Below are positions 3,056 through 37,359 of a stretch of 40,000 nt of DNA, piece by piece. The position numbers and the translations under genes are program-made. The stretch is taken from positions 925,893 through 965,892 of the forward strand of contig NZ_BNCI01000001.1 of NCBI RefSeq assembly GCF_014656395.1, read 5' to 3'. Below the pieces are notes generated by a model. It searched no databases and was not told the origin of the DNA. It saw only the letters and a list, made by a program, of their open reading frames with translations. The first letter of the stretch is position 1. Every line of letters starts with the position of its first letter. This DNA comes from Kordiimonas sediminis. GTDB lineage: Bacteria > Pseudomonadota > Alphaproteobacteria > Sphingomonadales > Kordiimonadaceae.

Positions 3056-3080
3056 AAGGCCGGTTTTTACCGGCCTTTTT
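3056..3080 (+). terminator. Rho-independent terminator between convergent genes
   Basis: AAGGCCGG-TTTTTA-CCGGCCTT followed by TTT, 29 nt after the stop at 3027. Confidence 0.75.
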
Positions 3081-8903: not shown

Positions 8904-8929
8904 AAAGGCCCCTTGCGAGGGGCCTTTTG
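8904..8929 (+). terminator. Rho-independent terminator
   Basis: AAAGGCCCC-TTGCGA-GGGGCCTTTT, 19 nt after the stop at 8885. Confidence 0.8.
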
Positions 8930-12077: not shown

Positions 12078-12106
12078 CAAAAAAATACGGCCCCGATGGG
12101 GCCGTA
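12078..12106 (-). terminator. Rho-independent terminator of the psp operon (minus strand)
   Basis: On the minus strand: TACGGCCCC-ATC-GGGGCCGTA followed by TTTTTTTT. Confidence 0.8.
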
Positions 12107-17375: not shown

Positions 17376-17401
17376 AAAAAGGGGCCATTTGGCCCCTTTT
17401 T
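17376..17401. terminator. Bidirectional rho-independent terminator
   Basis: AAAAAGGGGCC-ATTT-GGCCCCTTTTT between convergent genes (stops at 17341 and 17428). Confidence 0.85.
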
Positions 17402-24412: not shown

Positions 24413-24904
24413 ATGCTGAAATCACTCACAACAATATTTACACTTTTGCTTTTTAGCTCCTCTGGGCTGTTGGCACAGGAGATCGGCGCCAGCGGAAATC
24501 CGATACCGCGCTTCGTGTCCCTGAAGGCAGAAAAAGCCTACATGCGAACAGGGCCTGGGCGTCAGTTTCCTATTGAATGGACATATAAGCGTAGCGGCTT
24601 ACCCCTTGAAGTTGTTGGGGAAAACGGGCCGTGGCGGAACGTACGAGATCACGAAGGTTCGACGGGCTGGATGCATCTGCGGTTACTGTCAAGTGCCCGT
24701 ACCGCCATGATTCGTGGTGGTGCTGCCCGGCTGTATGCAGACCCGAATCCAACAGAGCGGGTGACGATTCTTGCCGATGAAGGAGTTATCGGTGACATAT
24801 TGGAATGCGAAGCAAATTGGTGTGAACTGGAAATCGCAGGTGAACACGGCTGGATACAGCGGGGGCGTTTGTGGGGCGTGTACCCCGGTGAAGTGATTGA
24901 CTAG
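24413..24904 (+). CDS. Bacterial SH3 domain protein (secreted)
   Basis: Signal peptide, then PRFVSLKAEKAYMRTGPGRQFPIEWTYKRSGLPLEVVGENGPWRNVRDHEGSTGWMH and a second SH3-like half. Confidence 0.7.
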   Translation: MLKSLTTIFTLLLFSSSGLLAQEIGASGNPIPRFVSLKAEKAYMRTGPGRQFPIEWTYKRSGLPLEVVGENGPWRNVRDHEGSTGWMHLRLLSSARTAMIRGGAARLYADPNPTERVTILADEGVIGDILECEANWCELEIAGEHGWIQRGRLWGVYPGEVID

Positions 24905-24908
24905 TAGC

Positions 24909-25850
24909 ATGACAGATATTCCCGGTTTTGAGTTTATCCCGTATCAGAGCGCGTACCGTTCCGATTTCGCCCGGCTGAACATTGATTGGCTGGAAGAGTT
25001 TTTTGTCGTCGAACCCATTGATGAATTGGTGCTTCATAACCCGGAGGACTATATCCTCAACAAAGGGGGCGATATTTTCTTCGCGCTTAAAGACGGCCAA
25101 GCAGTTGGCACTGTTGCGATGAAGGCGACAGACCGTACAGGAGTGTTTGAACTTACCAAGCTTGGTGTGGACAAAAGCTGTCAGGGTGCCGGCGTTGGCG
25201 AGGCTCTGTGCCAGATGGTGTTCGACCGGTTTATAGAGGTCGGCGGCGCGCTTCTGTTTTTGGAGACCAATACCAAACTGCAACCGGCTATTCGGCTTTA
25301 TAAACGGTTGGACTTCGTCGAAAAACCTCTTCCTTCTGACACCCCTTACGAGCGGGCAAACTATTATATGGAATGGCAGGGTGCGGGGCTTACAATCCAT
25401 TCGGCAACATCGCGCCGGGATATTGCCATTGTGCGGGACTTCTTTCAGGAATACGCCCACTGGCTGGAGGCGGAAACGGGCCTGTCTCTGGCTTTTCAAG
25501 GGTTTGAGGAGGAAATGGCCGGGTTTCCAAGCAAGTATGAAACCCTGTTGCTGGCAAAATATAACAGCAGGCCTGTCGGGGCGGTTGCTCTATTGAAGCA
25601 TGATGATGCTGTGTGCGAAATGAAACGCTTGTTTGTGACACCGTCCGGGTGGGGCAAGTCTGTTGGCAAGCATCTTAGTGTTGCGGTGATGGAAGAAGCC
25701 CGCCAGCGGGGGTTCACTGTGATGTTGCTGGATAGCCTGCGCCGCCTTGAGAATGCGGTGGCGTTATACCGCGCGCTTGGGTTCGAGGAAACGGACCCCT
25801 ATAACGAAAACCCGGAAGCCGATGTGGTCTATATGAAGCGGGATTTATAG
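24909..25850 (+). CDS. Tandem GNAT-domain N-acetyltransferase
   Basis: ATG 24909 (listed start 24897 is TTG). Two acetyl-CoA-binding-like blocks: QGAGVGEAL and WGKSVGKHL. Confidence 0.8.
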   Translation: MTDIPGFEFIPYQSAYRSDFARLNIDWLEEFFVVEPIDELVLHNPEDYILNKGGDIFFALKDGQAVGTVAMKATDRTGVFELTKLGVDKSCQGAGVGEALCQMVFDRFIEVGGALLFLETNTKLQPAIRLYKRLDFVEKPLPSDTPYERANYYMEWQGAGLTIHSATSRRDIAIVRDFFQEYAHWLEAETGLSLAFQGFEEEMAGFPSKYETLLLAKYNSRPVGAVALLKHDDAVCEMKRLFVTPSGWGKSVGKHLSVAVMEEARQRGFTVMLLDSLRRLENAVALYRALGFEETDPYNENPEADVVYMKRDL

Positions 25851-25886
25851 GAACAGTACCGGCAGCGTCTGTAGACACAAAAAAGC

Positions 25887-25903
25887 CCCCGCTAGTGCAG
25901 GGG
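25887..25903. repeat. Left copy of target-site duplication CCCCGCTAGTGCAGGGG
   Basis: Identical 17-mer at 35687-35703. The unambiguous core is GCTAGTGCAGGGG; the limits are blurred by adjacent C/G runs. Confidence 0.75.
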
Positions 25904-25932
25904 GGGGTATAGTGATATCTCACAAAAAATAA
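25904..25932. repeat. Left terminal inverted repeat
   Basis: GGGGTATAGTGATATCTCACAAAAAATAA. The reverse complement of 35658-35686 is GGGGTATAGTGATATCTTACAAAAAATAA (28/29 identical). Confidence 0.85.
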
Positions 25933-25956
25933 TTCAACGTGCATCACTGTAAGATT

Positions 25957-25989
25957 AAAGCCGCTTCTCTGAAATGGAGGCGGCTTTTT
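25957..25989 (-). terminator. Hairpin/terminator downstream of the Cas1-membrane protein operon
   Basis: AAAGCCGCTTC...GGAGGCGGCTTT stem (with G-U pairs) flanked by A/T runs, ~30 nt after the stop at 26017. Confidence 0.45.
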
Positions 25990-26016
25990 CTAGTCGGAAC
26001 GAATTAGATAACAGCT

Positions 26017-26691
26017 TTACTTACGATTTGCGAACGCAGACTGTTGCAGTACTGAGCGATATTCTTTTGCCAGTTTTTCCTTCATTTCTGCCTTCAGCCG
26101 TTTTGTGATTAACCTTTTGTATTTCCACCTTTTGAGCCAGTTTATCCCGTACCCACGCAAGAACATTGAAGCTTCACCTCTTGCGGCATTTAGCAGATCA
26201 CTTGGAGCACAATTCACTTCTAGTAATTGTTCTCGTACATGCCATGCCTCCATTTTATGTGGATTGGGGGGAGAGCAAAGGTGGTTCACTATTCTTAGTC
26301 GCCATTTTACGCTGTCGTCAAAAGCAATGACAGCGGCCCTTAGTGCATCAAGTTCAGCCTTGGCAGCATTCAATTTACTTATAAATGGTTTTAAACCGCT
26401 AATAATTTCCTCAAGCAATTTAACAAGTTCATTTTCAAGCTGTTGATCATAAGGTTTGCCTGATGTGTATAGACTGACAAGTTCATCCCCCAACTTTTTC
26501 GACATAGAGATCGATAGTATTGTCTTATCTTTAACATCAGTGTCCAAATACTCAAAAACCGCTGTTGCCAAATCAATTGACGCTTGGCCTCGGTTTTTAA
26601 ATAACCAGTAGTCTTTAATCCAAACAATCCAGATTAATATTATACCTCCAATTATTGAGGCTATAATTGCGCCTATCGTTAAGCCTTCCAT
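26017..26691 (-). CDS. Hypothetical membrane-anchored coiled-coil protein (element cargo)
   Basis: Best start is ATG 26691 (GAGGG 5 nt upstream), giving MEGLTIGAIIASIIGGIILIWIVWI (TM). The listed start 26733 is TTG and overlaps cas1. AT-rich. No family recognised. Confidence 0.5.
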   Translation of the reverse strand: MEGLTIGAIIASIIGGIILIWIVWIKDYWLFKNRGQASIDLATAVFEYLDTDVKDKTILSISMSKKLGDELVSLYTSGKPYDQQLENELVKLLEEIISGLKPFISKLNAAKAELDALRAAVIAFDDSVKWRLRIVNHLCSPPNPHKMEAWHVREQLLEVNCAPSDLLNAARGEASMFLRGYGINWLKRWKYKRLITKRLKAEMKEKLAKEYRSVLQQSAFANRK

Positions 26692-26719
26692 TTGCACCCT
26701 CATCCCAATTAGATCAAGT

Positions 26720-27811
26720 TTAACTCTGAGCAATCAATCTTGCCAACTCAGGTCCAAGTCTGCAAACACCATCTTCCTGCAAGATAAAGTCTGCCCCTGA
26801 GAAGGTTTCTTCCTGAACCAGCTTTAATATAGCCCTGTCAGCTATTGGCCGCTTGGGTTCCATCAGGTCGTAAATAAACGAATGCCGTTCAGCCACCATC
26901 CGGTCGTGCATGATACCAATTGAGGGGTCATAGCCATCTGCGATTGCTTCGATCCTGACACTACTTTCCAGCATCGTATAAGCATAATTCAGCATGGCAT
27001 TCACAGGATGTGTTGCATTGCGGTTTGACGGGGTTGTGAGTACGGCTAACGATGACCGTGAGAAGAAACGCTTCCATTCATCAGGGATAGGATATTTCCC
27101 CTGAGCCTTCCATTTAATATCTAGTGCGCGCCAAGCGAAAAAATAGCCCTGCGCGACCTGTCCTTCATACGCGAGAAGCTTAGATATATCCTGCGGCGGT
27201 TCTTCCTTGAGAAGCTTCAAGGTCGAATGTGCCTGATCAATGGCCTTGTCCCGCGAATGGGAAGCGGGGAGAATGTTTTCGAGATTGTAGAGCGTTTCCT
27301 TGATCTTGCCTTCAATGAGGGGTTTTGCAAACTTCAGCCTGTTTTCCTCGTTGGCCCGTGTCGCAATCTGCCACGTTACTTTCTGACGGTCAGCGGCATA
27401 GCCTGATGCACAGTGAACGGAAGCAATACGTCCATCCCACCGGAGCCTGATAAGGTCAACCTTCTGTTCGCTGAGCCAATCAAGGGCATCAAGGGTGATA
27501 TTGCCAGACCCGTCAACGAGGACAATGCGCGACGGTAAGGACAAATCTCCTTTGAAGAACTGGAACTCCCTGACCTGTTGAGGGAAGTGGGTAAAGCCAC
27601 CACGGACTATCAAGGTTCCTCTATCCACATGTAGGGAAACACCGTTCCCGGTCAGCACTAGGGGGGTCTGTTGTCTCTGCCTTCTTTTGCGTTTGGGGAT
27701 GCCAGCTTCACAGGCGGCAATCCAGTATTGGCAGCGTTCAGACCATTCATCAATCTGAGCTTCAGAGTCGCTTTTTTGAGATAACTGGTTCAATATGCCC
27801 CCTACATTCAA
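26720..27811 (-). CDS. cas1: Cas1 homologue (putative casposase)
   Basis: N-terminal beta domain (LVLTGNGVSLHVDRGTLIVRGG; RIVLVDGSGNITLDALDWL). Helical domain with E216 (LLAYEGQVAQGYF), NAMLNYAYTML, H302 (GIMHD), D315 (IYDLMEPKRPIAD). Start uncertain: TTG 27811, TTG 27793 or GTG 27658. Confidence 0.85.
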   Translation of the reverse strand: MNVGGILNQLSQKSDSEAQIDEWSERCQYWIAACEAGIPKRKRRQRQQTPLVLTGNGVSLHVDRGTLIVRGGFTHFPQQVREFQFFKGDLSLPSRIVLVDGSGNITLDALDWLSEQKVDLIRLRWDGRIASVHCASGYAADRQKVTWQIATRANEENRLKFAKPLIEGKIKETLYNLENILPASHSRDKAIDQAHSTLKLLKEEPPQDISKLLAYEGQVAQGYFFAWRALDIKWKAQGKYPIPDEWKRFFSRSSLAVLTTPSNRNATHPVNAMLNYAYTMLESSVRIEAIADGYDPSIGIMHDRMVAERHSFIYDLMEPKRPIADRAILKLVQEETFSGADFILQEDGVCRLGPELARLIAQS

Positions 27812-27845
27812 ATACTAATAATATCATATTGGATTCTAGCAAAAG

Positions 27846-28487
27846 ATGCAGATTAAGCCACGGAAAATATGGGAAAAAGGCACTGATTTAAATAAGGCTT
27901 GGCTGGAATATGCAACTGAAAATGAGCGTCAGAAGTATCTGGAATTAAATAACCATAAAATGGAATTTGGTAACGATATTGGTCGTAATATTCAGTTAGT
28001 TGGCAACCTTCTTAATAGGCCAAATCAAATTGAGAATTTAAAAGATGAATTACGCAATTCCCTAATTCAGAAATTGAAGAAAGGTGATTTACTTGCATTT
28101 GGGTATTCGATTTATCCCACTCTTGCGGGTGTGGCATCCCGAATAGAGAATGAATTCTGGATGCTGGCTACATGCAAATGGGAAAATGATGAAGCCCATA
28201 GCCGCTTTAAAGCATACCACCGAATTAAAATTATAAATCCAGACCTATTTCCAGATTTGGATTTAATTCCTGAAATTGGCCGACCATCCAAAGCGGCTAT
28301 TAGGGAAAAAGCAATATTGAGATGTATTGATAAAATTCCTGAATTTGAATTATTAACACATAAAGAAAAAGCCGAATTAATTCGTGCGGAAATAAAAGAA
28401 GAAAATCCAGACATAGACCCTTATGGTCCAGGGTATGGGGATGACGTTATTAAAAAGCAGGTAAATAAAATTCTGAAATCAATTTAA
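27846..28487 (+). CDS. Hypothetical protein (element cargo, AT-rich)
   Basis: 213-aa ORF from ATG 27846, divergent from cas1 with only a 34-nt gap. Contains an IGRPSKAAIREKAI segment. No family recognised. Confidence 0.5.
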   Translation: MQIKPRKIWEKGTDLNKAWLEYATENERQKYLELNNHKMEFGNDIGRNIQLVGNLLNRPNQIENLKDELRNSLIQKLKKGDLLAFGYSIYPTLAGVASRIENEFWMLATCKWENDEAHSRFKAYHRIKIINPDLFPDLDLIPEIGRPSKAAIREKAILRCIDKIPEFELLTHKEKAELIRAEIKEENPDIDPYGPGYGDDVIKKQVNKILKSI

Positions 28488-28643
28488 TTGAATTAATTAA
28501 TTTTAATTGGAATTAAGATCAGGAAATCATTTTCAAATAAGTAATTAGAATCAAATAGTTTTTCCCTTTATCCCGACTCCACAGCAACGCAAATTCGCGC
28601 AACGCTTCCTTCAAGTGACGAATCATTTTGAAAGGACGTTAGC

Positions 28644-29222
28644 GTGTCTAAGAAACGCGATTACAAAGCAGAATACAGGAGACGCATTGAGCGTGGCTTA
28701 GCCAGAGGGTTAAGCCGGTCTCAGGCCAGAGGCCACCCCAAAGCTGGGGAGCGTGGCATCACCTCGGGCGTAACAAAACCCACAAGCACCCCGGAGCTTG
28801 AAACAGCCCTGATGCATTTACGCGATGGGCAAACCCAAAAAGATGCTGCCAACAAGGCTGGGGTCTCCACTGACAAGTTCCGGCGGTTTCTTTACGGTAA
28901 TAAGTTGGCTACCCACCAAGGTCGTAAATGGATACTCACAGATGACAGACCAAGACGGGTGGCGGCAATTACAGATGGCCGCATTAAGGCTGTGACTGTC
29001 CCGAACTATTCGGAAGCTGAAAAAGCTGGGTCATTTTACCATGCTGTCAGCAAATTCATTAGTACCAATCAACCAGCCTACCTTCTTCCTTTTCTTGAGG
29101 ATGGTGTCAACGACATTAAGGGCAATTTTATTCCCTTTGAAACTAACCCCAATGAACTCCACCGCATCGCGTCGATGGACACCCCAGACTTTGCTGAAAT
29201 TTATCAAATTATTTCCAATTAA
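28644..29222 (+). CDS. HTH DNA-binding protein with strongly basic N-terminus
   Basis: GTG 28644 is preceded by AAAGGA. N-terminus YKAEYRRRIERGLARGLSRSQARGHPKAGE. Putative HTH QKDAANKAGVSTDKFRRFLYG. First gene of the HTH-HNH-polB cluster. Confidence 0.6.
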   Translation: MSKKRDYKAEYRRRIERGLARGLSRSQARGHPKAGERGITSGVTKPTSTPELETALMHLRDGQTQKDAANKAGVSTDKFRRFLYGNKLATHQGRKWILTDDRPRRVAAITDGRIKAVTVPNYSEAEKAGSFYHAVSKFISTNQPAYLLPFLEDGVNDIKGNFIPFETNPNELHRIASMDTPDFAEIYQIISN

Positions 29223-29233
29223 GGACTTTACCC

Positions 29234-29596
29234 ATGACCAAATACAAACCTGATGCTGAAGACCGCAGAGAACAAAGAATTAGACGACTAGGCTTTGATG
29301 ATCCCATGTGCGTTATCTGCGGAGAAGATTATGTTCTCTGCCTAGAGAAGCACCATGTAGCGGGGCGGAAGTATGATGATACAGAGGTTCCCGTCTGCTG
29401 CAACTGTCACCGCAAGCTTAGTGATAACCAGCTTGATTATCCTGACAGCAACCCCAATCAGGACCGTAACCTTCTGACTATCGGATATTTCCTGATGGGC
29501 CTCTCTGATCTATTTAAACTGCTTGCCGAGAAACTTATGGAGTTTGGCAATCACCTGATCGTCAATGCACACAGTCAGGAGCAGATTGATGAATAG
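29234..29596 (+). CDS. HNH endonuclease
   Basis: CVICG...LEKHHV...VPVCCNCHRKLS (CxxC / HH / CxxCH arrangement). The stop overlaps the polB start. Confidence 0.8.
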   Translation: MTKYKPDAEDRREQRIRRLGFDDPMCVICGEDYVLCLEKHHVAGRKYDDTEVPVCCNCHRKLSDNQLDYPDSNPNQDRNLLTIGYFLMGLSDLFKLLAEKLMEFGNHLIVNAHSQEQIDE

Positions 29597-32294
29597 TCAC
29601 GATATTCAGGAGATTGCAGTTCGTGCCTATACGGAGACACCGGACAGGCAACCCCTTGGCACCAAACCCCGAACGCGAGAGCAACGACCATCTGCCTACT
29701 CCCTCATCTTTGACTGTGAAACAACGGTTGATGCAGCACAGTCACTCAAGGTCGGCTTTTATCAAATCAGGAACAAAACAAGGCTGGCTGAGGAAGGACT
29801 ATTTTATGCGGCAGAGGCGTTAAGCTGCCGTGAAGTTGATCTTCTGGAAGCCTATGCAGAAAGGCATAGCCTACCCCTCAAAACCATTGAGGAGTTCAGA
29901 ACGCGGGTTTTCCTCAAGCATGCCTATTTCCGCAGGGCTTGTGTCGTGGGCTTCAACCTGCCTTTTGATATCTCCCGCATTGCCCTTGGCCACGGTGCCG
30001 CCAGAGGATCGTTCCGGGGTGGCTTTACGTTTAAGCTTTCTGAATACAAAAGTGATCCCTTTGTCCGGGTCAAGCATCTGAGTGCCAGAGCCGCCCTGAT
30101 GGATTTTGCTAGACCCGCCAAGCAGGAAACCACCCGCGGCATGCGGAAGAAAGGTCAAAAGACGCCAGCCTTCCGGGGCTATTTCACCGACCTGAAAACC
30201 TTGGCCGCAGCTCTCACGAGCCGGTCCTTCAGCCTTGATACGCTCGGCAAATATTTAGGCGTCAAAACTGGGAAAATGGAAACCGCAGAACACGGCCAGG
30301 AAATCACTACTGACTATCTCGACTATGCCCGGACAGACGTTCAGACAACATGGGAATGTTACGAGAAGCTGTTAGATATGTATGCAGCGCACAATCTGGA
30401 AACCCCAGCCCATAAAATCCTCAGTGAAGCGAGCCTTGGCAAAGCCTATTTGCAGCTTATGAATATCAAGCCGCTTTTGGCCTCAAACCCCGACTTGGAC
30501 AGGTCCATCTTCGGCACCATTATGTCGAGCTATTACGGGGGCCGAGCCGAGATCAGGATAAGGAAGGAAATCCGGCAGGTTCTCTATGCTGACTTCAAAT
30601 CCATGTATCCAACGGTTAGTGCCCTGATGGGGCTTTGGGCCTTTGTGACCGGGGATGACCTGACTTGGAAAACGTCAACCGACGAAACAAGAAACTTCCT
30701 AAAGACTGTCATCCTTGATGACCTCAAAACAAGAGAGACATGGAAGAAGCTGACAACCCTTGTTCGGGTCAAGCCGGCTGATGATATTTATCCGGTCCGG
30801 GCCAAATACAATAGCCGCGTTCACACCATTGGCTTGAACAAGTTAAGCACAGACCATTCCTTGTGGATGACCCTTGCTGACTGTATTGCCTCGAAAATCC
30901 TTTCTGGCAAAACCCCGGAGATTATTGAGGCCATCAGCTTTGAGCCGGGACAGCCACAACAGGATATGGAGCCGATATGCCTGTTTGGGTCAAATGAGTT
31001 TGCGGTTGATCCATACAGAGATGATGTCTTCACCAAACTGATTGATTTGAGGGACAGGGCCAAGGCTGACAGAAACCCTCTAGAGAAGGCCATCAAGATT
31101 GTCGCCAATTCCACTGGCTACGGCATCTTCATTGAAATTAACCGGGATGACGCCCCAAAGCCCGAACCCGTTAAGGTGTATGATCAGTTTGGCAGCGCAA
31201 GCCTTCAGGACATGAAAGCAATTGAGGAACCCGGCAAATATTTTCATCCGCTTATGGGGACGCTGATCACGGGAGCCGCACGGCTAATGCTGGCCCTAGC
31301 GGAACAGCTAACGCTCAATGAAGGACTTGGTTGGGTATTCTGTGACACTGACAGCATTGCTATGGCCAAGCCAAAGACGATGGCACAGGATGCATTTATC
31401 ACCAAAGCCGAAAGGGTCATCAAATGGTTTGAAAGCCTGAATCCCTACCAGAAGCCCGGATCAATCCTGCAAATGGAAGATACCAACTTTGATAAGGTGA
31501 CAGGAAAACACCTACCTCTTTACTGTCTCGCTATCTCAGCCAAACGCTATGCCCTGTTTAATCGGGACGGTAAAGGCAACCCTGTTCTCAGGAAAGCATC
31601 AGCCCACGGACTAGGGCACTTGAGGCCCCCATACCGCAATGAGGACACTTCAGACGCTGTTCCAGCCCCAACAGTCCCTTTAGGTGAGATTGGGGTGCAA
31701 CGCTGGCAGCATGACCTATGGTACAAGATTATTGAAGCGCATCTGTCAGGCCATCCCAATCAGGTGGCTCTCAATTGGCACCCGACTTTCGACAAGCCCG
31801 CTGTTAGCCGCTACGGAGCCACAAGCCCCCACATGCTTAAATGGATGGACCACTGGAATGCAGGACGGGAATACCCGCAGCAGGTAAGGCCCTTTGGCTT
31901 TATGGTATCCTTCTCAGCCAAGACCGGACCGTTTGCACCACCCCCAGAGGTTAGTCTTGTTGATCCTTCCAAGCGGGGCCGTCCCACAAAGGCTGAGACA
32001 CCCAAGCCGATTGCTCCTTTTGCCAGTGACCACAATGAAGCTGTTGCCAATGCCTTTGACCGCATAAGTGGGGAAGCGGTTGAACAATGCCAGCTTAAAA
32101 CCTACCGCGAAGCCCTGTGCCAGTATCACCTATCAACAGAGGATAAGTTTGATAATGGTGATTTCTGCGACTTCGGGGAGACGACACGACGGCATATCAC
32201 TGCAACCTCAATCAGGCTCGTCGGCAAGGAAGCAAACAAGGTGGGAGAGAGTGGGGAACTGCATCCATTAGCGAGAACTGCGGAGTTTTTCTAA
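29589..32294 (+). CDS. polB: Family B DNA polymerase (casposon-type; protein-primed-like layout)
   Basis: AGGAG 29577-29581 precedes ATG 29589 (ATG 29565 is an alternative). Motifs: ExoI FDCET, ExoII NLPFD, ExoIII YARTD, motif A DFKSMYPT, motif B KIVANSTGYG, motif C FCDTDS, KxY-like SAKRYAL. Confidence 0.9.
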   Translation: MNSHDIQEIAVRAYTETPDRQPLGTKPRTREQRPSAYSLIFDCETTVDAAQSLKVGFYQIRNKTRLAEEGLFYAAEALSCREVDLLEAYAERHSLPLKTIEEFRTRVFLKHAYFRRACVVGFNLPFDISRIALGHGAARGSFRGGFTFKLSEYKSDPFVRVKHLSARAALMDFARPAKQETTRGMRKKGQKTPAFRGYFTDLKTLAAALTSRSFSLDTLGKYLGVKTGKMETAEHGQEITTDYLDYARTDVQTTWECYEKLLDMYAAHNLETPAHKILSEASLGKAYLQLMNIKPLLASNPDLDRSIFGTIMSSYYGGRAEIRIRKEIRQVLYADFKSMYPTVSALMGLWAFVTGDDLTWKTSTDETRNFLKTVILDDLKTRETWKKLTTLVRVKPADDIYPVRAKYNSRVHTIGLNKLSTDHSLWMTLADCIASKILSGKTPEIIEAISFEPGQPQQDMEPICLFGSNEFAVDPYRDDVFTKLIDLRDRAKADRNPLEKAIKIVANSTGYGIFIEINRDDAPKPEPVKVYDQFGSASLQDMKAIEEPGKYFHPLMGTLITGAARLMLALAEQLTLNEGLGWVFCDTDSIAMAKPKTMAQDAFITKAERVIKWFESLNPYQKPGSILQMEDTNFDKVTGKHLPLYCLAISAKRYALFNRDGKGNPVLRKASAHGLGHLRPPYRNEDTSDAVPAPTVPLGEIGVQRWQHDLWYKIIEAHLSGHPNQVALNWHPTFDKPAVSRYGATSPHMLKWMDHWNAGREYPQQVRPFGFMVSFSAKTGPFAPPPEVSLVDPSKRGRPTKAETPKPIAPFASDHNEAVANAFDRISGEAVEQCQLKTYREALCQYHLSTEDKFDNGDFCDFGETTRRHITATSIRLVGKEANKVGESGELHPLARTAEFF

Positions 32295-32387
32295 CTCAGC
32301 TTTGGTCCTTCTATGACGTTTTCTGGATGGAGGTTTATACCTAATGCTACATACTGTTGTATTGGTTCTCTGTTAGCAAATAAATCC

Positions 32388-35138
32388 TTAGGGTTTTTCA
32401 ATCAATTTAATATCTTCTGTCGTTAATCCGTACAGCTCATAAACCATTTTGTCGATTTCACAATCAGTCTGATCAATCTCACTTTTAATATCTAGCACTC
32501 TAGCCTTTTCCTTTTCAAAATACTCCATCCATTCAGACTTTTGAGAAAGCGATAGCTTTGCAGGCTTTATAGACTTTTCAAGTTCCGCTATAAAATCGAA
32601 GAAAGACAATTCGTACCAGATTTCTAGCTTCTTGGACATTCTATCTATTCTGAACTCAGATTTAATCAAACGTCCTAGTTTCTCTCTTGTAGAATTTAAC
32701 ATCTCATTATTTTTTATGATCGAATTTGCTTTATTTACAAATTTTGTCTGTCTTTTTATATCAGTTCTAGGAATGGGATAATTATTTACGTCTTTAATAA
32801 CAGCTTTAGGAAACATGCTGCGATTTCCTTTTACTGCTCTTCTGGAATGGTAAAAACCCATCAAACTAGAATTTAATATGCAAAGCACAAACTTCAACAA
32901 GTAGTCGTTATCCAGAGCAAGAATATTAATAATACTTTTGTTGTTTAAAAATGTGCCCTCAACATATGTAGCTTGTAATAGCTTTGGATATTTCCCAGTT
33001 ATCTCTCGTATTAAAACTCTTGGCCCAGAAAACATAGAAATATCTCGAGGTTGAGATAACCACTTTCCGTATCTTAACCACTTTCCAGACCAGCTTACAT
33101 CATACCTAAGTACATCTTTTCCTTCTAAATATTTAAAAGTATCTTCATCGTATTTATGGTCATAATCATAAATGTGGTCTTTGACGTCTCGGGCAGTTTG
33201 TTTAGGCGTTCCCTTACCTTTCTCGTAAGCCTGCAAGCCAGCTTTTACTTCATAAAAGTTTGATAGTGGCGCATGCGCTTCAATTTTTTTTATTGTCTCT
33301 AACTCTGCACCTGAACTCTGGAGGTCGAAGATATAAGATTCAATTTTCTTCCATTCCTCCTGAGGAGCAGACAAGCATGGTGTTTCCAGTTCTGTAGCCG
33401 AATAGATATTTTTGAAGTTAACTATATTTTTTTTGTTAATTGTGTTTGATGCGCAAAAAATAGCAGCCTCAACATTAGCCCCATCAAATGTATTTCCTAA
33501 TAAATTCAGCACTGTATTTAAAGATACTTTTTCCAAGAGAAATTCTCTGGTCAGCATAGCTGAATCTGTTCCTAAGACAGAATTAGGTACAATATATGAT
33601 AAGTAGCCTTTATCTTTTAATAGAGAAAACCCTAGCTCGATAAAAAGGATGTAGAGATTAATTTTATCCCTCACTAAAGAATAGTTAGCTCCTACATAAT
33701 CCTTAAAATTGTCAAATATATTATCTCTTGACAAAACATATGGAGGATTTCCAACAATTACATCGAATTTACCAGTTTGTATGATTTCGGAGAATTCTGA
33801 GCTCCAATTAAACGCTAAATCTCCGGCAATTTTGTGGTCGTCAATTAGCGAGTTTCCAACTTTGATGTTATCTTCTAAATATGTGAGTTTTTCCTGTCTG
33901 TTAGCTGTTTTAAGCCACAATGATAGCTTCGTTATTTCCACGGATTCGCTATTCAAATCCACTCCATAAATATTATTCGCTAGTATGTGTGTGTCCCAAC
34001 GAAAGAGCGAGATTTGTTCATTCTTCAAATAGGCTAGCTGACTGTTTACCGCTTCACCTTCTTTTTTTAGATAATCAAAAACCTCATTCAAAAATGCCCC
34101 AGAACCACAGGCCGGATCGAGAACCCTTATTTTTGAAAGCGTATTTTTATATGCTTCCCAGAAGTCAATATGTCGCCTAACTTTCTTGGCAATCTGTTGC
34201 CGCTTTGTTTTAAATTCTTGCGTAGTTTTTTTTGTGAAACTTTTGCTTTTAGTATCGACACGGTGAAGATCGAATTCTTCTTCTGTTATCTCAGGTAAGC
34301 TATCCCCGGCGAGTTCTTTCTTCCGGTCATTTAACCAACCACCTACAGCCAGCTCTACAATGTAGCGGGTTATGTATGGAGGAGTATAAAAAACACCGTC
34401 CTTTTTCTTTTTACTTTTTTTCTTGTCTAAAGGTTCTTCTATACCCTCTGCTTTTGCCTTGATCTCTTCAAGGTCGCTAATTGACTGTTCGAAAATATGA
34501 CCAAGAATATTAACGCTTACATCACTCTCAAAATCGTAATCCCCAATCCTCTTGAAGCCCTGACAGAGTTCATCACTAATATTTAGGGTGTCTAGTTCAA
34601 GGGTTTGTTTAAAGAGACCACCATTATATGCAGGAATATTGAGTTCAGAATTGCCTTTATCAATCGCGTGAAACAGGCCTTTAAAATTTTCCCATATCGG
34701 CTGTGGATTATAAGGGTTTTTCGTCGCATAAGCTTGTTTTAAAGTGTCTTTAGGTAATAGCCCTTTGTCTTCTGCAAAAGCGATAAAAAGAACACGATCT
34801 AAGATGGTTTGGGCAAATTGGACTACCTCAATTGGTTCTTGATGAGGATTATCGTCTCCAATTTTTTTGATCAGGTTTGCTCTCAGGTCTTTGTAATCTG
34901 AATATAACTGGTCGGTAATTTCTTTATCAATTTTTTCACTTTCTTTGAGCAAATCATATGTCGTACCCCCCAATAGATTTTTTGCGGAAAGTAATAAAAT
35001 AAAACGCGCATAATCTTTTGGATTGCTTAAGTTGGATAAATCAAAGACCTCATAATCTTTCCGGCCATAACCTACGGCATATAGTCTGAGTTCGCGGTAA
35101 TTGGAGACGCAAACCCATCGTGCACCTTTTGCGTCCAT
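32388..35138 (-). CDS. Type IIG restriction-modification enzyme, large fragment (N6-adenine methyltransferase + specificity domains)
   Basis: Motif I VLDPACGSGAFL, motif IV VGNPPYV, C-terminal tail VYELYGLTTEDIKLIE typical of Eco57I/MmeI-like fused enzymes. AT-rich. Confidence 0.85.
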   Translation of the reverse strand: MDAKGARWVCVSNYRELRLYAVGYGRKDYEVFDLSNLSNPKDYARFILLLSAKNLLGGTTYDLLKESEKIDKEITDQLYSDYKDLRANLIKKIGDDNPHQEPIEVVQFAQTILDRVLFIAFAEDKGLLPKDTLKQAYATKNPYNPQPIWENFKGLFHAIDKGNSELNIPAYNGGLFKQTLELDTLNISDELCQGFKRIGDYDFESDVSVNILGHIFEQSISDLEEIKAKAEGIEEPLDKKKSKKKKDGVFYTPPYITRYIVELAVGGWLNDRKKELAGDSLPEITEEEFDLHRVDTKSKSFTKKTTQEFKTKRQQIAKKVRRHIDFWEAYKNTLSKIRVLDPACGSGAFLNEVFDYLKKEGEAVNSQLAYLKNEQISLFRWDTHILANNIYGVDLNSESVEITKLSLWLKTANRQEKLTYLEDNIKVGNSLIDDHKIAGDLAFNWSSEFSEIIQTGKFDVIVGNPPYVLSRDNIFDNFKDYVGANYSLVRDKINLYILFIELGFSLLKDKGYLSYIVPNSVLGTDSAMLTREFLLEKVSLNTVLNLLGNTFDGANVEAAIFCASNTINKKNIVNFKNIYSATELETPCLSAPQEEWKKIESYIFDLQSSGAELETIKKIEAHAPLSNFYEVKAGLQAYEKGKGTPKQTARDVKDHIYDYDHKYDEDTFKYLEGKDVLRYDVSWSGKWLRYGKWLSQPRDISMFSGPRVLIREITGKYPKLLQATYVEGTFLNNKSIINILALDNDYLLKFVLCILNSSLMGFYHSRRAVKGNRSMFPKAVIKDVNNYPIPRTDIKRQTKFVNKANSIIKNNEMLNSTREKLGRLIKSEFRIDRMSKKLEIWYELSFFDFIAELEKSIKPAKLSLSQKSEWMEYFEKEKARVLDIKSEIDQTDCEIDKMVYELYGLTTEDIKLIEKP

Positions 35139-35153
35139 TGCATATTCCCATGC

Positions 35154-35525
35154 TTATTGGACTGGTGTTTTATAGCGACCCGGCATTATACTATCGAGGT
35201 CTTTTGTCTTGGCACCTTTTAATTCGAATGGTACTTGAATTTTTGTCTCAGTTTCGCTGAACTCCCCTAATGCAACGTCTACATTTCCGCGTCCAACAGG
35301 TTGGTTTTTGGCTACGGTCCAACTATGAGTATCGCTACTTCTTGTATACCCTAAAACCTCAACGAGAATTCGCTGTATGAATACGTCATCGTTCTGAATT
35401 TCACTATCGTATCTTCCAAGTGATAAATTAGTAGCCCACGCCTTAAGTATCTCAGCATGGTTTTCAGGCACTTCATTAATATGTTGTGCGTGTTTCTCAA
35501 CAATTCTTGGATGGAGTAATGCCAT
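35154..35525 (-). CDS. Type IIG enzyme, N-terminal fragment carrying the PD-(D/E)xK nuclease motif
   Basis: GNVDVAL...(19 aa)...PFELKGAK (D...ExK). Ends at TAA 35154-35156, in the same frame as the 32388..35138 ORF. Confidence 0.7.
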   Translation of the reverse strand: MALLHPRIVEKHAQHINEVPENHAEILKAWATNLSLGRYDSEIQNDDVFIQRILVEVLGYTRSSDTHSWTVAKNQPVGRGNVDVALGEFSETETKIQVPFELKGAKTKDLDSIMPGRYKTPVQ

Positions 35526-35657
35526 AAAGAAAATTCAACCAATACTATTGATGGATTTTATTGATTGAACGGTAGCCTACAACATTAATGTTCTCAACTC
35601 TTAATGGATATTATAATTCTAAGACGAAAAGCTCCCCCAACGTTTTAGGAGAGCCAT

Positions 35658-35686
35658 TTATTTTTTGTAAGATATCACTATACCCC
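35658..35686. repeat. Right terminal inverted repeat
   Basis: TTATTTTTTGTAAGATATCACTATACCCC, the inverted partner of 25904-25932. Confidence 0.85.
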
Positions 35687-35703
35687 CCCCGCTAGTGCAG
35701 GGG
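35687..35703. repeat. Right copy of target-site duplication CCCCGCTAGTGCAGGGG
   Basis: Identical to 25887-25903. Confidence 0.75.
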
Positions 35704-35727
35704 CTTTTCTTAATTCTGGAGATCAGA

Positions 35728-37359
35728 CTAGCCGAGTTTTTTCGGCGCAGTCGCTTTTACCGAATCGTCAACATGTGATTCGAACTTTTCAAAGTTCGCA
35801 ACAAACAGTCCAGCCAGGTGATCTGCTTTTGCGTCGTATGCATCTTTGTCCGCCCATGTTTCGCGCGGCGTCAGAATTGCAGAATCAACACCGGCGATCG
35901 CTGTTGGTACTTCAAAGCCGAATCGCTCATCAACACGCATGGATACGTCATTCAGGCTACCGTCCAGCGCAGCATGAAGCATCGCGCGGGTCTGCTTGAT
36001 AGGCATCCGGTGTCCTGTGCCGTACTCGCCGCCGGTCCAGCCAGTGTTAACAAGCCAGCATCTTACGTTACCTTCTGCGATTTTCTTGCGCAGCAGGTCA
36101 CCGTAAACAGCAGGGTGGCGCGGCATGAACGGGCCGCCAAAACATGCAGAGAAAGTCGCCTGCGGCTCTTTCACGCCAATCTCGGTACCCGCAACCTTGG
36201 CCGTGTAACCAGACAGGAAGTGATACATTGCCTGTTCCGGAGAAAGGCGGGAGATTGGAGGCAGGACACCAAAGGCATCAGCGGTAAGCATGATGATGTT
36301 TGTTGGCTTGCCGCCGCGGTTTTCCTCGGACGTGTTAGGAATAGACGTCAATGGATAGGCCGCGCGCGTGTTTTCTGCCAAACTATTGTCAAACAGGTCC
36401 AGTTCGCGGGTTGCTTCGTCCATCACCACATTTTCTACAACTGTCCCGAACATGTGGGTCGTTGCATAAATTTCCGGTTCTGCTTCGGCGCTGAGGTTGA
36501 TCAGCTTGGCGTAACAGCCGCCTTCGAAGTTGAAGACACTGTCATCAGACCAGCCGTGCTCGTCATCACCGATCAGGGTACGGCTGCTGTCCGCGGACAG
36601 GGTTGTCTTCCCGGTGCCAGACAGGCCAAAGAAGATCGCTACATCACCGTCCGGGCCGATGTTGGCGGAACAGTGCATTGGCATGACACCCTTTGGTGGC
36701 AGCAGATAATTGAGGATGGAGAAGACAGACTTCTTATTTTCACCGGCATATTCAGTGCCGCCGATAAGAACCAGTCCTTTGGAGAAGTTCACCGCGATAA
36801 TTGTTTCAGAACGGCAACCCATTGTTTCAGGATCAGCGCGGAAACTTGGCAGGTTAATGATTGTGAACTGCGGTGCCATATCCGCCATTTCACCGGCTTC
36901 CGGTTCGATCAGCATAGTCCGGCAAAACAGGCTGTGCCATGCATATTCGCCGACTGTCCGTACCGCAATACGGTGGGTAGGATCGCTACCGCCCCAAAGG
37001 TCCTGAATGAACAGTTCCTTGTCTTTCATATGATCCTGGAAAGCAGTGTAGATACGGTCAAAGTTTTCCGGTGTCATTGGGCGGTTAACATCGCCCCACC
37101 ATACAGTATCTTCAGTGGTTTCATCCCGAACTGTAAATTTGTCATTCGCAGAGCGACCGGTATGCTTGCCTGTTTTTACAACAAGTGGACCGTCTTTTGC
37201 GAGAGAGCCTTCGCCGCGGCGGATGGCTTCTTCATACAGTTGTTCGGTGGTCAAGTTCCAATATTGGTTGCCAGTCTTCGTGATGCCCTGAGCATCCAAG
37301 TCGACTTTACTATGGCGGGAGCCGTATACTTGCACGGTAATTGTCTCCGTTGCTATCAC
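35728..37359 (-). CDS. pckA: Phosphoenolpyruvate carboxykinase (ATP)
   Basis: [14 protein letters not shown], the kinase-1a loop [11 protein letters not shown], and overall PckA length. The start is GTG 37359, or GTG 37335 (GGAGA upstream). Confidence 0.95.

What the first reader, a model, noticed from the sequence alone, without database searches (positions are those of the whole stretch)
25871..25932. Insertion lies exactly inside a two-way terminator hairpin; deleting the element regenerates it
Joining 25860-25903 to 35704-35750 gives ...ACACAAAAAAGCCCCCGCTAGTGCAGGGGCTTTTCTTAATTC... This is a 9-bp stem (AAAAGCCCC/GGGGCTTTT) with an A-run before and a T-run after. It is the same style of terminator seen at 3056-3080, 8904-8929, 12078-12106 and 17376-17401. 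It sits between the convergent GNAT gene (stop 25850) and pckA (stop 35728).

The duplicated segment is the loop plus both G/C half-stems. The element ends (GGGG.../...CCCC) are identical to the adjoining target bases. This creates G8 (25900-25907) and C8 (35683-35690) runs, so the true TSD length is ambiguous between 13 and 18 bp.

After insertion both host genes keep a GC hairpin but lose their U-tract, so read-through into the element from both sides is plausible. Characterised casposons use tRNA or EF-2 gene 3' ends as targets, so a terminator stem-loop target would be a different site choice. The right junction is at 35658-35720.
Basis: partly seen in the sequence, partly recalled or inferred. 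Interest (0 to 1): 0.65.

Follow-up and report, generated by a model that had tools for sequence, protein, structure and literature searches.

The report
Casposon inserted in a terminator hairpin
A 9.8-kb self-replicating transposon that uses a Cas1 enzyme (a casposon) sits exactly inside the two-way terminator hairpin between two bacterial genes, and nearly all its relatives in other bacteria also sit inside such GC-rich hairpins, a target preference not described in the casposon papers I could search.

Summary
A perfect 18-nt direct repeat (25886-25903 and 35686-35703) flanks 28/29-nt terminal inverted repeats. Together they bound a 9.8-kb element that encodes Cas1, a family B DNA polymerase, an HNH protein and a type IIG restriction-modification cargo gene. 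Removing the element and one repeat copy rebuilds an A-run/GC-hairpin/T-run terminator between the convergent GNAT and pckA genes.

The element is a bacterial family-3 casposon. Its closest named relative is HypCY54-C1 (Cas1 about 60% identical, same core gene order).

I recovered 80 related loci. In 63 of the 72 loci with recognisable element ends, a conserved GGGGTATAG end abuts a GC-rich hairpin. These hairpins are either intrinsic terminators or REP-like dispersed palindromes. The inferred duplication is 14-17 bp and is centred on the hairpin dyad.

For HypCY54-C1 I predicted the empty site and found it exactly in a metagenome contig: left flank, one repeat copy, right flank. No empty site exists for the window itself, because the host has no close relative in the databases.

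Hairpin targeting by casposons appears unreported. Published papers say only "intergenic".

The parts
24897..25850 (+). Host gene: double-GNAT N-acetyltransferase. Its stop codon lies 35 nt before the hairpin.
   Evidence: ORF. Pfam Acetyltransf_1 at 3.8e-28, two domains. The upstream synteny lepA / 2-hydroxyacid dehydrogenase / SH3 / GNAT is kept in Temperatibacter marinus.
25879..25885 (.). A-run plus G. This is the outer 5' half of the original terminator stem, and on the - strand it is the T-run of pckA's terminator.
   Evidence: Direct reading. The - strand terminator-like site 25903..25886 followed by CTTTTTTGTG is flagged.
25886..25903 (.). Left copy of the target-site duplication (maximal direct repeat of 18 nt; the likeliest true TSD is 25887-25903, 17 nt).
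   Evidence: (family D14).
25904..25932 (+). Left terminal inverted repeat, GGGGTATAGTGATATCTCACAAAAAATAA.
   Evidence: The end motif GGGGTATAG is conserved in relatives.
25958..25989 (+). Subterminal terminator-like hairpin plus T-run inside the left end. It faces incoming GNAT transcription and also lies downstream of the cas1 operon on the - strand.
   Evidence: Fold of -20.8 kcal/mol, z = -3.25.
26017..26733 (-). 238-aa ORF downstream of cas1, with no family match. It is a variable accessory gene.
   Evidence: It is not conserved in relatives.
26720..27811 (-). Casposase (Cas1 homologue, 363 aa).
   Evidence: Pfam Cas_Cas1 at 3.2e-36. Best PDB hit is 6OPM, the M. mazei casposase, at 5.5e-24. 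It is 60-61% identical to the HypCY54-C1 casposase. E216, H302, D315 and E318, which I take to be the catalytic residues (my assignment), are invariant in the alignment.
27846..28487 (+). 213-aa ORF, weakly conserved in some relatives.
   Evidence: tblastn hits in L009, L024 and L012.
28644..29222 (+). 192-aa core protein of unknown function, conserved and syntenic in relatives.
   Evidence: 46-58% identity in L085, L003, L007, L009 and L013.
29234..29596 (+). HNH-type small nuclease (120 aa) with CxxC...HH...CxxCH motifs.
   Evidence: Sequence. It is syntenic with homologues in relatives. An HNH protein is reported in all family 2 and 3 casposons (PMC4046053).
29565..32294 (+). Family B DNA polymerase (909 aa).
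   Evidence: Pfam DNA_pol_B_2 at 6e-9. It is 51% identical over 889 aa to the HypCY54-C1 PolB and about 60% identical to those of L003, L007, L009 and L013.
32388..35525 (-). Cargo: a type IIG restriction-modification enzyme. One in-frame stop codon (35151-35153) splits it into a 123-aa N-terminal part and a 916-aa methylase/specificity part. GC content is 35-39%, against about 50% elsewhere.
   Evidence: Pfam Eco57I, N6_Mtase, MmeI_Mtase and TaqI_C. PADLOC REase_MTase_IIG at 2e-126, matching profile positions 126-677. Translation across the stop codon. Composition.
35630..35655 (-). Subterminal terminator-like hairpin plus T-run inside the right end, facing incoming pckA transcription.
   Evidence: Fold of -16.1 kcal/mol, z = -3.84.
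35658..35685 (-). Right terminal inverted repeat (reverse complement GGGTATAGTGATATCTTACAAAAAATAA).
35686..35703 (.). Right copy of the target-site duplication.
35704..35711 (.). CTTTTCTT. This is the outer 3' half of the original terminator stem and the T-run for GNAT-sense transcription.
   Evidence: Direct reading. Fold of the rebuilt site.
35728..37359 (-). Host gene pckA (ATP-dependent PEP carboxykinase). Its stop codon lies 24 nt from the hairpin.
   Evidence: Pfam PEPCK_ATP at 7e-219.

Best explanation
The segment 25904-35685 is a family-3 (bacterial) casposon. Its Cas1-type integrase joined the two 3' ends of the element (...CTATACCCC-3') to the two strands of the GNAT/pckA intergenic terminator. 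The joins were made at staggered positions about 17 bp apart (family range 14-17), on the 5' side of the C-run on each strand. Gap repair then duplicated the GC part of the hairpin.

This site choice is not an accident. This clade of casposases homes to GC-rich palindromic hairpins of the form 5'-CCC...GGG-3', which are either intrinsic terminators or REP-like dispersed palindromes. The duplicated segment is centred on the dyad.

Inferred: a two-fold symmetric casposase complex holding both element ends docks on the two-fold symmetric target and measures about 7-8 bp from the dyad to each cut. Whether it reads the palindrome as duplex DNA or as an extruded hairpin or cruciform is not resolved.

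Consequences, read from the sequence: each host gene keeps a hairpin but loses its U-tract. Complete hairpin-plus-T-run terminators now face outward from both ends of the element. The element supplies its own inward-facing terminators 31-55 nt inside each end. The insertion is therefore transcriptionally insulated and disrupts no gene.

Shown: the anatomy, the family-wide pattern, and an exact empty site for a sister element. Inferred: casposase catalysis, the recognition mode and the effects on termination.
For: Anatomy of the window element:
- An 18-nt perfect direct repeat flanks 28/29-nt TIRs. The repeat is unique in the window, with 0.03 matches expected by chance.
- Cas1, PolB and HNH are present, and no other recombinase match was found.
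- Cas1 is closest to the solved M. mazei casposase and about 60% identical to the named family-3 casposon HypCY54-C1, with the same gene order 192 aa / HNH / PolB.
- The rebuilt site is a strong bidirectional terminator, like four others in the window.

Family pattern:
- 265 genome hits gave 80 loci.
- 40 complete relatives plus the window have a direct repeat and a TIR with the conserved end G3-5TATAG (or GGGATAAGG). Their direct repeats are mostly C-run...G-run hairpins.
- 24 of 41 direct repeats contain at least 5 consecutive Watson-Crick pairs. The figure is 6% for shuffled repeats and 16% for host CCC..GGG windows.
- 99 of 123 candidate end junctions (63 of 72 loci) abut a hairpin, against 24.5% of control GGGG sites.
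- With fixed element ends, the inferred TSD is 14 bp (15 elements), 15 bp (15), 16 bp (5) or 17 bp (5). It is centred within 1 nt of the dyad in 26 of 31 palindromic targets.
- C is present at positions -2, -1 and +1 of the inferred cut in 69%, 68% and 91% of half-sites.
- Several genomes hold two or three copies at different sites, most of them hairpins: L001/L002/L005, L019/L021, L031/L059.
- Adjacent elements share a single hairpin copy in L002, L024 and L090.

Empty site: the predicted HypCY54-C1 empty site GAACCCCGGCCCCGGAAAGGCCGGGGTTTT has one exact metagenome hit. Its flanks align at 99.7% and 99.3% to the two sides of the element and overlap by exactly the 23-nt direct repeat. The hairpin starts about 25 nt after the folE stop codon.

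No tRNA or tmRNA lies at the junctions.
Against: - No empty site could be found for the window's own locus, so its pre-insertion state is a reconstruction.
- The exact TSD length depends on assuming that the element ends carry a fixed number of G residues.
- A minority of relatives sit in non-palindromic 14-bp sites (L040, L045, L058, L077; also weak palindromes in L001, L038, L066), so the hairpin is not an absolute requirement.
- The cuts lie inside the longer terminator stem rather than at its base. This argues against simple recognition of the cruciform junction.
- Selection against insertions into genes could contribute to the enrichment.
- No biochemical data exist for any family-3 casposase, as far as the papers held here show.
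- My gene-context classification for relatives was unreliable. Proper gene calls were used only for L085 and L092.
Confidence: 0.88

Rival explanations
1. Structure-specific targeting. The casposase recognises an extruded cruciform, or a single-stranded hairpin on the lagging-strand template or in a transcription bubble, rather than duplex sequence symmetry. This would be a variant of the best explanation, not a contradiction of it.
For: Stem sequences vary widely while pairing is kept. Near-perfect stems are far commoner at junctions than in host CCC..GGG windows. Both unique terminators and REP-like palindromes are used.
Against: The inferred cuts lie about 7-8 bp from the dyad whatever the stem length, and they lie inside longer stems (the window, L003, L007) rather than at the base of the stem. 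Non-hairpin 14-bp targets exist. The C-run at the cut points to sequence read-out.
Confidence: 0.3
2. Loose specificity plus survivorship. The casposase needs only C-rich half-sites about 14 bp apart. Insertions inside genes are purged, so the surviving copies are seen mostly in intergenic hairpins.
For: C at the cut is the strongest signal. Some targets are not hairpins. Intergenic CCC...GGG sites are often terminators.
Against: Survivorship predicts scattered intergenic positions. It does not predict a TSD centred within 1 nt of the hairpin dyad in 26 of 31 cases, and it does not predict repeated use of the regenerated hairpin by adjacent elements. The enrichment is 80% against 24.5% at control G-run sites, and those controls include intergenic sites.
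Confidence: 0.08
3. The hairpins belong to the element as terminal palindromes within the TIRs, as drawn for HenMar-C1 in 2014. They are not a duplicated target.
For: A palindromic TSD reads as an extension of the TIR: one search reports a 65-nt inverted repeat, I1. Krupovic 2014 lists the HenMar-C1 TIR as CCCCCTCTCCCGGATCGGGAGGGGATAAGGG... with a direct repeat of 1 nt.
Against: The two copies are direct repeats, including the asymmetric loop and the C/A mismatch. Hairpin sequences differ between elements that have near-identical TIRs. The empty site of HypCY54-C1 holds exactly one hairpin in a normal terminator position. An orthologous folE locus has its own, different terminator there.
Confidence: 0.02
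4. The repeat is a chance match, or the island was inserted by another recombinase (tyrosine or serine integrase, or an IS transposase).
For: Some relatives carry serine recombinases or IS elements as cargo.
Against: The chance expectation is 0.03. No Pfam or NCBIfam recombinase match was found in the window element other than Cas1. The conserved core in relatives is Cas1, the 192-aa protein, HNH and PolB; IS and serine recombinase genes are only variable cargo. A 14-17-bp TSD with TIRs is the published casposase signature (PMC4046053, PMC5137440).
Confidence: 0.02

Closest known systems
Family-3 bacterial casposons (HypCY54-C1, HenMar-C1/C2, CitBat-C1, NitAL212-C1; Krupovic et al. 2014, 2016)
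   Same: Cas1 is about 60% identical to that of HypCY54-C1, and PolB is 51% identical. The order of the 192-aa, HNH and PolB genes is the same. There is no C-terminal HTH on Cas1. The NitAL212-C1 TIR also starts GGGGTAT and has a 14-nt TSD. The hosts are bacteria and the cargo is variable.
   Different: This is a new member in a Kordiimonadales-like host, with a type IIG restriction-modification cargo. Published descriptions say only 'intergenic regions' (PMC4779613, PMC6614799). The hairpin/terminator target rule, the dyad-centred TSD and the subterminal terminators are not described in the papers I could read.
Family-2 archaeal casposons (A. boonei, M. mazei) and family-1 casposons (N. koreensis): biochemically characterised casposases
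   Same: The TSD is 14-15 bp. Only the few terminal nucleotides of the TIR matter for integration. A. boonei requires a CC dinucleotide immediately after the upstream cut (PMC6614799), and here C occupies position +1 in 91% of half-sites. Tandem insertions re-use the regenerated site (PMC4779613).
   Different: Those casposons use one asymmetric site: a tRNA 3' end or the EF-2 3' end, with a 'leader' determinant upstream of the TSD. Here the duplicated segment is itself the palindrome, the site is symmetric, and many different hairpins per genome can be used.
CRISPR Cas1-Cas2 spacer integration into (often palindromic) repeats
   Same: The enzyme is homologous. The attacks at the two ends of a short, often palindromic segment are staggered, and that segment is duplicated. 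The product is palindrome / insert / palindrome (PMC5137440).
   Different: There is no Cas2, no leader and no array. The insert is a 10-kb transposon. The TSD is 14-17 bp rather than a 25-35 bp repeat.
Mobile elements that home to extragenic hairpins: REP-targeting insertion sequences (IS1397/ISKpn1 type) and class C group II introns that insert next to intrinsic terminators (from my own knowledge, not checked here)
   Same: They use abundant, gene-free, structurally defined palindromes as safe landing sites. Both terminators and REP-like repeats serve as targets.
   Different: The enzymes are unrelated (DDE transposase; ribozyme/reverse transcriptase). Those elements insert in the loop or beside the hairpin and do not duplicate the whole stem-loop.

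Membership tests
Casposon superfamily | Encodes a Cas1-family integrase (casposase) with no CRISPR array and no cas2 | tested here: met
   Pfam Cas_Cas1 at 3.2e-36. Best PDB hit is the casposase 6OPM at 5.5e-24, against 5e-13 for the best CRISPR Cas1. No Cas2 match was found among the eight main ORFs of the element. No dedicated CRISPR-array or tandem-repeat scan was run. The repeat search of 25500-36100 listed no spaced repeat array among its 20 largest direct-repeat families.
Casposon superfamily | Encodes a family B DNA polymerase | tested here: met
   Pfam DNA_pol_B_2 at 6e-9. 51% identical to the PolB of HypCY54-C1 over 889 aa.
Casposon superfamily | Terminal inverted repeats flanked by a target-site duplication of about 14-15 bp | tested here: met
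   TIR of 28/29 nt with one mismatch. Direct repeat of 18 nt, inferred TSD of 17 nt.
Casposon superfamily | Integration catalysed by the casposase | not testable with these tools
   Inferred from the absence of any other recombinase match and from the conserved E216, H302, D315 and E318.
Casposon family 3 (bacterial) | Cas1 clusters with named family-3 casposases | tested here: met
   60-61% identity to the Cas1 of Hyphomonas sp. CY54-11-8 (P0041 = HypCY54-C1). No tree was built.
Casposon family 3 (bacterial) | HNH nuclease present, and no C-terminal HTH on Cas1 (the HTH is a family-2 trait) | tested here: met
   120-aa protein with HNH motifs, syntenic in relatives. Cas1 ends where the 6OPM core ends (query 50-361 against chain 20-307 of 431). 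The family description is in PMC4046053 and PMC6614799.
Casposon family 3 (bacterial) | Inserted in an intergenic region of a bacterial genome | tested here: met
   The element lies between the GNAT and pckA stop codons.
Rho-independent (intrinsic) bidirectional terminator, as the target | GC-rich stem-loop followed by a T-run on both strands, just downstream of convergent genes | tested here: met
   The rebuilt site has a 9+2-bp stem, an A6 run upstream and TTTTCTT downstream. It lies 35 and 24 nt from the two stop codons.
Rho-independent (intrinsic) bidirectional terminator, as the target | Actually terminates transcription | not testable with these tools
   This needs 3'-end mapping (Term-seq).
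REP-like dispersed palindromes (targets of many relatives, not of the window element) | The same palindrome recurs at several extragenic places in a genome | tested here: inconclusive
   Extra copies occur in the roughly 10-kb host flanks of L030, L034, L035, L039, L043, L046, L019, L025, L075 and L080. The motif CCCCGGACTTGATCCGGGG is shared across sphingomonad species. Whole-genome counts were not possible. The window's 18-mer is not repeated elsewhere.

The most novel reading that the evidence does not exclude
Bacterial family-3 casposases are dyad-guided integrases that home to any suitable GC-rich palindromic hairpin (terminator or REP) and duplicate it. This creates palindrome / insert / palindrome units, and through re-use of the regenerated hairpin it creates short arrays. 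That would be the missing natural intermediate for the origin of palindromic CRISPR repeats: the repeat would descend from a duplicated terminator-like target rather than from the transposon's TIR. The junction 'GC hairpin + GGGGATAAGG' in some members (L010, L074) resembles the type I-E repeat '...CCCCGCGCCAGCGGGGATAAACCG'. I quote that repeat from memory and did not verify it here.
Probability: 0.3. Interest if true: 0.85.

Novelty: new variant of a known kind. Interest (0 to 1): 0.68.

Why it matters
Casposons are the presumed ancestors of the CRISPR adaptation machinery. Target choice has been studied only for archaeal casposases, which use one asymmetric tRNA or EF-2 site with a leader-like determinant.

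Here a large bacterial clade duplicates a short, GC-rich, palindromic segment centred on its dyad. The evidence is 265 genome hits and more than 670 homologous proteins. This gives a concrete natural parallel to repeat duplication at palindromic CRISPR repeats. It also makes testable the question of whether CRISPR repeats came from the target or from the TIR.

The pattern also explains how these elements can spread across many alphaproteobacterial orders without a conserved attachment gene: every genome offers terminator hairpins. It shows a tidy 'safe harbour' design, with outward terminators retained and inward terminators supplied by the element. Finally, it nominates a hairpin-homing integrase that carries defence cargo (type IIG restriction-modification, Lamassu-like genes, SIR2).

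Tried and rejected
1. Empty site for the window. The window's Cas1 and its shorter database version are not on record for context look-up. The best GNAT relative is only 51% identical; in Temperatibacter marinus the upstream synteny is kept but pckA is not adjacent. An exact scan of metagenomes for the predicted empty site gave 0 hits. This remains unresolved rather than negative.

2. tRNA, tmRNA or T-arm-like targets. The sphingomonad hairpin CCCCGGATCAAGTCCGGGG looks like a T-arm, but ARAGORN found no tRNA or tmRNA at any junction in 18 loci. Rejected.

3. An Rfam scan of several loci failed because the request exceeded the size limit. I did not repeat it.

4. Gene-context classification of relatives with a home-made ORF picker mis-called even the pckA side of the window. 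I discarded it, except for distances to the nearest 3' ends. Proper gene calls were obtained only for L085 and L092.

5. Re-reading the published HenMar-C1 'TIR' as hairpin TSD plus TIR. The two published arms are inverted, not direct (loop GAT against CAT), so the re-reading is not supported by the printed sequences. I keep it only as a lead.

6. The closest Cas1 relatives on long contigs (L082, L083) turned out to be decayed elements full of IS copies and gave no clean ends.

7. Checking the E. coli I-E repeat failed because the query was below the 30-nt minimum.

8. The 2017 casposon review (PMC5665730) is not held in the library, so I cannot exclude that it mentions this target preference.
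Full report
**1. The observation**

The window holds a perfect 18-nt direct repeat, CCCCCGCTAGTGCAGGGG, at 25886-25903 and 35686-35703. With up to three mismatches allowed it occurs nowhere else in the 40 kb, and shuffles predict 0.03 matches.

Directly inside the two copies lie the inverted repeats GGG(G)TATAGTGATATCT[C/T]ACAAAAAATAA, at 25904-25932 and 35658-35685. The G-run of each element end abuts the G or C run of the repeat.

Joining the left flank, one repeat copy and the right flank gives ACAAAAAAGCCCCCGCTAGTGCAGGGGCTTTTCTTAA. This folds on both strands into a stem of 9+2 pairs flanked by an A-run and a T-run. The energies are -25.1 and -27.3 kcal/mol, z = -4.1 and -4.9, and none of 200 shuffles folds as well.

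The site lies 35 nt after the stop codon of a double-GNAT acetyltransferase gene (+ strand) and 24 nt after the stop codon of pckA (- strand). Four other bidirectional terminators of the same build are present in the window.

**2. What the inserted DNA is**

The 9.8-kb insert encodes the following:
- a Cas1 homologue (26720-27811, - strand; Pfam Cas_Cas1 3e-36);
- a 909-aa family B DNA polymerase (29565-32294);
- a 120-aa HNH-motif protein;
- a conserved 192-aa protein;
- two poorly conserved ORFs of 238 and 213 aa;
- a low-GC type IIG restriction-modification gene.

No other recombinase was found.

Among solved structures, the Cas1 is closest to the Methanosarcina mazei casposase 6OPM (5.5e-24). 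The best CRISPR Cas1 scores 5e-13. The window's Cas1 lacks the C-terminal HTH of family-2 casposases. Instead it has a 49-residue N-terminal extension with invariant W23, R26, W30 and a PKRKRR patch.

It is about 60% identical to the casposase of Hyphomonas sp. CY54-11-8. That element was named HypCY54-C1 and assigned to family 3 by Krupovic et al. 2016 (PMC4779613). The PolB is 51% identical, and the 192-aa / HNH / PolB module is syntenic.

The element is therefore a new member of the bacterial family-3 casposons. Judged by its best protein hits, the host is a Kordiimonadales-like alphaproteobacterium with no close sequenced relative.

**3. Is the hairpin target a one-off?**

It is not. The casposase has more than 670 homologues. 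A scan of one genome per species found 265 encoding loci, of which 80 were fetched.

A script looked for direct repeats that span cas1 and are backed by inverted repeats. It delimited 40 complete relatives. Their ends are conserved: G3-5TATAG(T/A/C)(G/T)AT, or in a sub-group GGGATAAGG or GGGATATAG. Their flanking repeats are overwhelmingly C-run...G-run hairpins. Examples:
- L007: aaaagg CCCGGTGCAAATACCGGG cctttttt
- L008: CCCCGGCCCCGGAAAGGCCGGGG tttttt
- L009: aaagg CCGCCCGTTCGGGCGG ccttttc
- L010: CCCCGCCTTTTGAGGCGGGG tttttt
- L074: aaaag CCCCGCCGAAGCGGGG ctttttt

Two target classes appear:
- Classical A-run/hairpin/T-run terminators: the window, L003, L007-L011, L013, L074, L092.
- GC hairpins without T-runs. 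These recur elsewhere in the host flanks and across species (CCCCGGACTTGATCCGGGG, CCCCGTGCTTGACACGGGG, CCCTCTCCC..GGGAGAGGG). They look like REP-type dispersed palindromes.

The quantitative results are:
- 24 of 41 repeats contain at least 5 consecutive Watson-Crick pairs. The figure is 6% for shuffled repeats and 16% for CCC..GGG windows in the host flanks.
- 99 of 123 candidate element-end junctions (63 of 72 loci) abut a hairpin. At control G-run sites in the same loci the figure is 24.5%.
- No tRNA or tmRNA lies at the junctions.
- Several genomes carry two or three copies at different sites, most of them hairpins (L001/L002/L005, L019/L021, L031/L059).
- In L002, L024 and L090, two elements or an element and a remnant sit side by side and share a single hairpin copy. 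The regenerated hairpin is therefore re-used.

**4. Geometry of the duplication**

The element ends start with G's and the targets end with G's, so the raw repeat (12-27 nt) overestimates the duplication.

Unambiguous non-G/C targets give 14 nt: L058, L077, L040 and L045, plus the published 14-nt repeat of NitAL212-C1. Fixing the element end at GGGGTATAG (GGG for the ATAAGG and ATATAG types) gives inferred duplications of 14 bp (15 elements), 15 bp (15), 16 bp (5) and 17 bp (5). The window's value is 17 bp, CCCCGCTAGTGCAGGGG.

In 26 of 31 palindromic targets the duplicated segment is centred within 1 nt of the hairpin dyad. Around the inferred cut, C occupies position -2 in 69% of half-sites, -1 in 68% and +1 in 91%. 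This recalls the CC dinucleotide that the A. boonei casposase needs just after its upstream cut (PMC6614799).

The cuts lie about 7-8 bp from the dyad even when the stem continues further, as in the window, where the AAAAG/CTTTT part stays outside the duplication. This fits a symmetric integrase complex that measures from the centre of a symmetric site better than it fits cleavage at the base of a cruciform. However, pairing is enriched beyond the C and G runs. Recognition of an extruded hairpin therefore remains a live alternative, and selection against insertions in genes may add to the pattern.

**5. Empty-site test**

The window's own empty site could not be found.

For HypCY54-C1 I predicted the empty site from the two junctions and scanned the metagenome collection for the 30-mer GAACCCCGGCCCCGGAAAGGCCGGGGTTTT. 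One exact hit came back, on a 1.75-Mb contig.

Its sequence aligns at 99.7% to the folE side and at 99.3% to the far side of the element. The two alignments overlap by exactly the 23-nt repeat. So left flank + one repeat copy + right flank is a real, uninterrupted terminator whose hairpin starts about 25 nt after the folE stop codon.

A more distant folE locus carries a different intact bidirectional terminator at the same place. Another related contig carries a casposon end at a hairpin right after folE.

It was applied to a sister element, and it passed.

**6. Consequences for transcription (read from sequence; function inferred)**

After insertion, GNAT and pckA each run into a GC hairpin followed by GGGGTATAGTG rather than a U-tract.

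The complete hairpin-plus-T-run units now face outward. The left copy with CTTTTTTGTG on the - strand is flagged. The right copy with CTTTTCTT lies on the + strand. Transcription leaving the element would therefore be stopped at both ends.

In addition, the element carries terminator-like hairpins with U-tracts just inside each end, oriented against incoming transcription:
- 25958-25986, followed by UUUUUC (-20.8 kcal/mol, z = -3.25);
- 35655-35630, followed by UUUUCGUCUU (-16.1 kcal/mol, z = -3.84).

Similar subterminal terminators occur at both ends of L003, L007 and L013 and at one end of L001, L002 and L009.

**7. Comparison with what is known, and novelty**

Casposons, their TIRs, their 14-15-bp duplications, tandem insertions and family 3 itself are all known (PMC4046053, PMC4779613, PMC5137440, PMC6614799, PMC6977970). 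In that respect this element is simply a new member.

[quoted passage not shown] The 2016 paper contains none of the words palindrome, hairpin or stem-loop. Full-text searches for casposon with terminator or palindromic, and for all casposon and casposase papers since 2021, returned nothing on this point. The 2017 review could not be read.

I therefore rate the target rule as a new variant of a known kind. It differs from the characterised archaeal systems, which use one asymmetric tRNA or EF-2 site with a leader-like determinant. In outcome, though not in enzymology, it resembles REP-homing insertion sequences and terminator-homing group IIC introns (this comparison rests on my own knowledge).

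Its main interest is the parallel with CRISPR. A Cas1-family enzyme duplicates a short GC-rich palindrome around an insert and re-uses the regenerated palindrome.

**8. Verdict**

My confidence is about 0.88 that this is a casposase-made insertion into a terminator hairpin and that hairpin homing is a property of the clade. The mode of recognition (duplex symmetry or extruded structure) is open.

Noticed in passing
window 35100-35540 (- strand); stop codon at 35151-35153: The type IIG restriction-modification cargo gene is split by a single in-frame stop codon into a 123-aa N-terminal part and a 916-aa methylase/specificity part. The N-terminal part is presumably the nuclease domain, because PADLOC profile positions 1-125 are missing from the large ORF. 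The gene may be a nuclease-dead methylase or a recent pseudogene.
   Followed up: partly
window 25958-25989 (+) and 35630-35655 (-): The element carries terminator-like hairpins with U-tracts just inside both TIRs, facing inward. The same feature is seen in L003, L007 and L013 (both ends) and in L001, L002 and L009 (one end). Together with the outward-facing halves of the split host terminator, they insulate the element on both sides.
   Followed up: partly
window 25876-25884 versus 25921-25929 and 35661-35669: The 9-mer CACAAAAAA in the left host flank is also present inside the left TIR (the right TIR has TACAAAAAA). This may be coincidence between a terminator A-run and the A-rich tract conserved 18-26 nt from the ends of related TIRs (...CAGAAAAAT).
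   Followed up: no
L002 3352/3372; L012 3860/3879; L024 14133/14153; L025 5262/5283; L045 14669/14688; L090 5116/5134: Two element ends sit back to back, separated by a single hairpin copy (CTATA-C4-hairpin-G4-TATAG, 22-24 nt). L090 has two full cas1 genes. L002 has a second PolB fragment and L024 a second Cas1 fragment. The other loci may be solo TIRs or remnants. These are short 'palindrome / insert / palindrome / insert' arrays.
   Followed up: partly
L085 11731-15349; L083 11870-14350; L091 13982-18105; L090 5513-7746; window 32388-35525: The cargo of these casposons is often defence-related: Lamassu-like genes (LmuB_C, MC3, CTD7) in HypCY54-C1, SIR2/nSTAND or SIR2 genes, an ApaLI-type restriction-modification pair, and a type IIG restriction-modification gene in the window.
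   Followed up: no
L082 and L083 (closest Cas1 relatives on long contigs): These casposon copies are riddled with IS110, IS21, IS3, Mutator and DDE transposase genes, and their ends are not recognisable. They are decaying elements in IS-rich regions.
   Followed up: no
L088 1128-1180: In a strain with a 91%-identical FolE, a different hairpin (CCGGCCCGCGAGGCCGG) right after folE is followed by a casposon TIR (GGGTATAGTCATATCCAGCGATAATCAT). The folE terminator locus has therefore been hit in a second lineage, or carries a variant or solo end. The contig is too short to tell.
   Followed up: no
Supplement of PMC4046053 (HenMar-C1); compare L059 3355-3390 and L075 4520-4570: The published 37-nt 'TIR' of HenMar-C1 (CCCCCTCTCCCGGATCGGGAGGGGATAAGGGAAAGCA, direct repeat = 1 nt) consists of a REP-like hairpin followed by the GGGGATAAGGGAAA end. 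In L059 the end GGGATAAGGGAAAC follows a hairpin that is a true direct repeat. In L075, where only one junction is held, GGATAAGGGAAAGC follows a similar hairpin. The printed HenMar arms are inverted rather than direct, so the case needs the original sequence.
   Followed up: partly
L040, L045, L058, L077 (TSDs CTAAGAACCACTGG, AGATCAGCCGGAAT, AACGAGAACAAAAA, CAAAAGCGCTTGAC): A minority of more distant relatives have clean 14-bp duplications that are not hairpins. This suggests sub-clades with a different, possibly site-specific, target.
   Followed up: no
window 32000-35500: GC content falls to 35-39% over the restriction-modification cargo, against 47-52% in the casposon core and about 50-54% in the host flanks. 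The cargo was probably acquired from a different source than the core.
   Followed up: no
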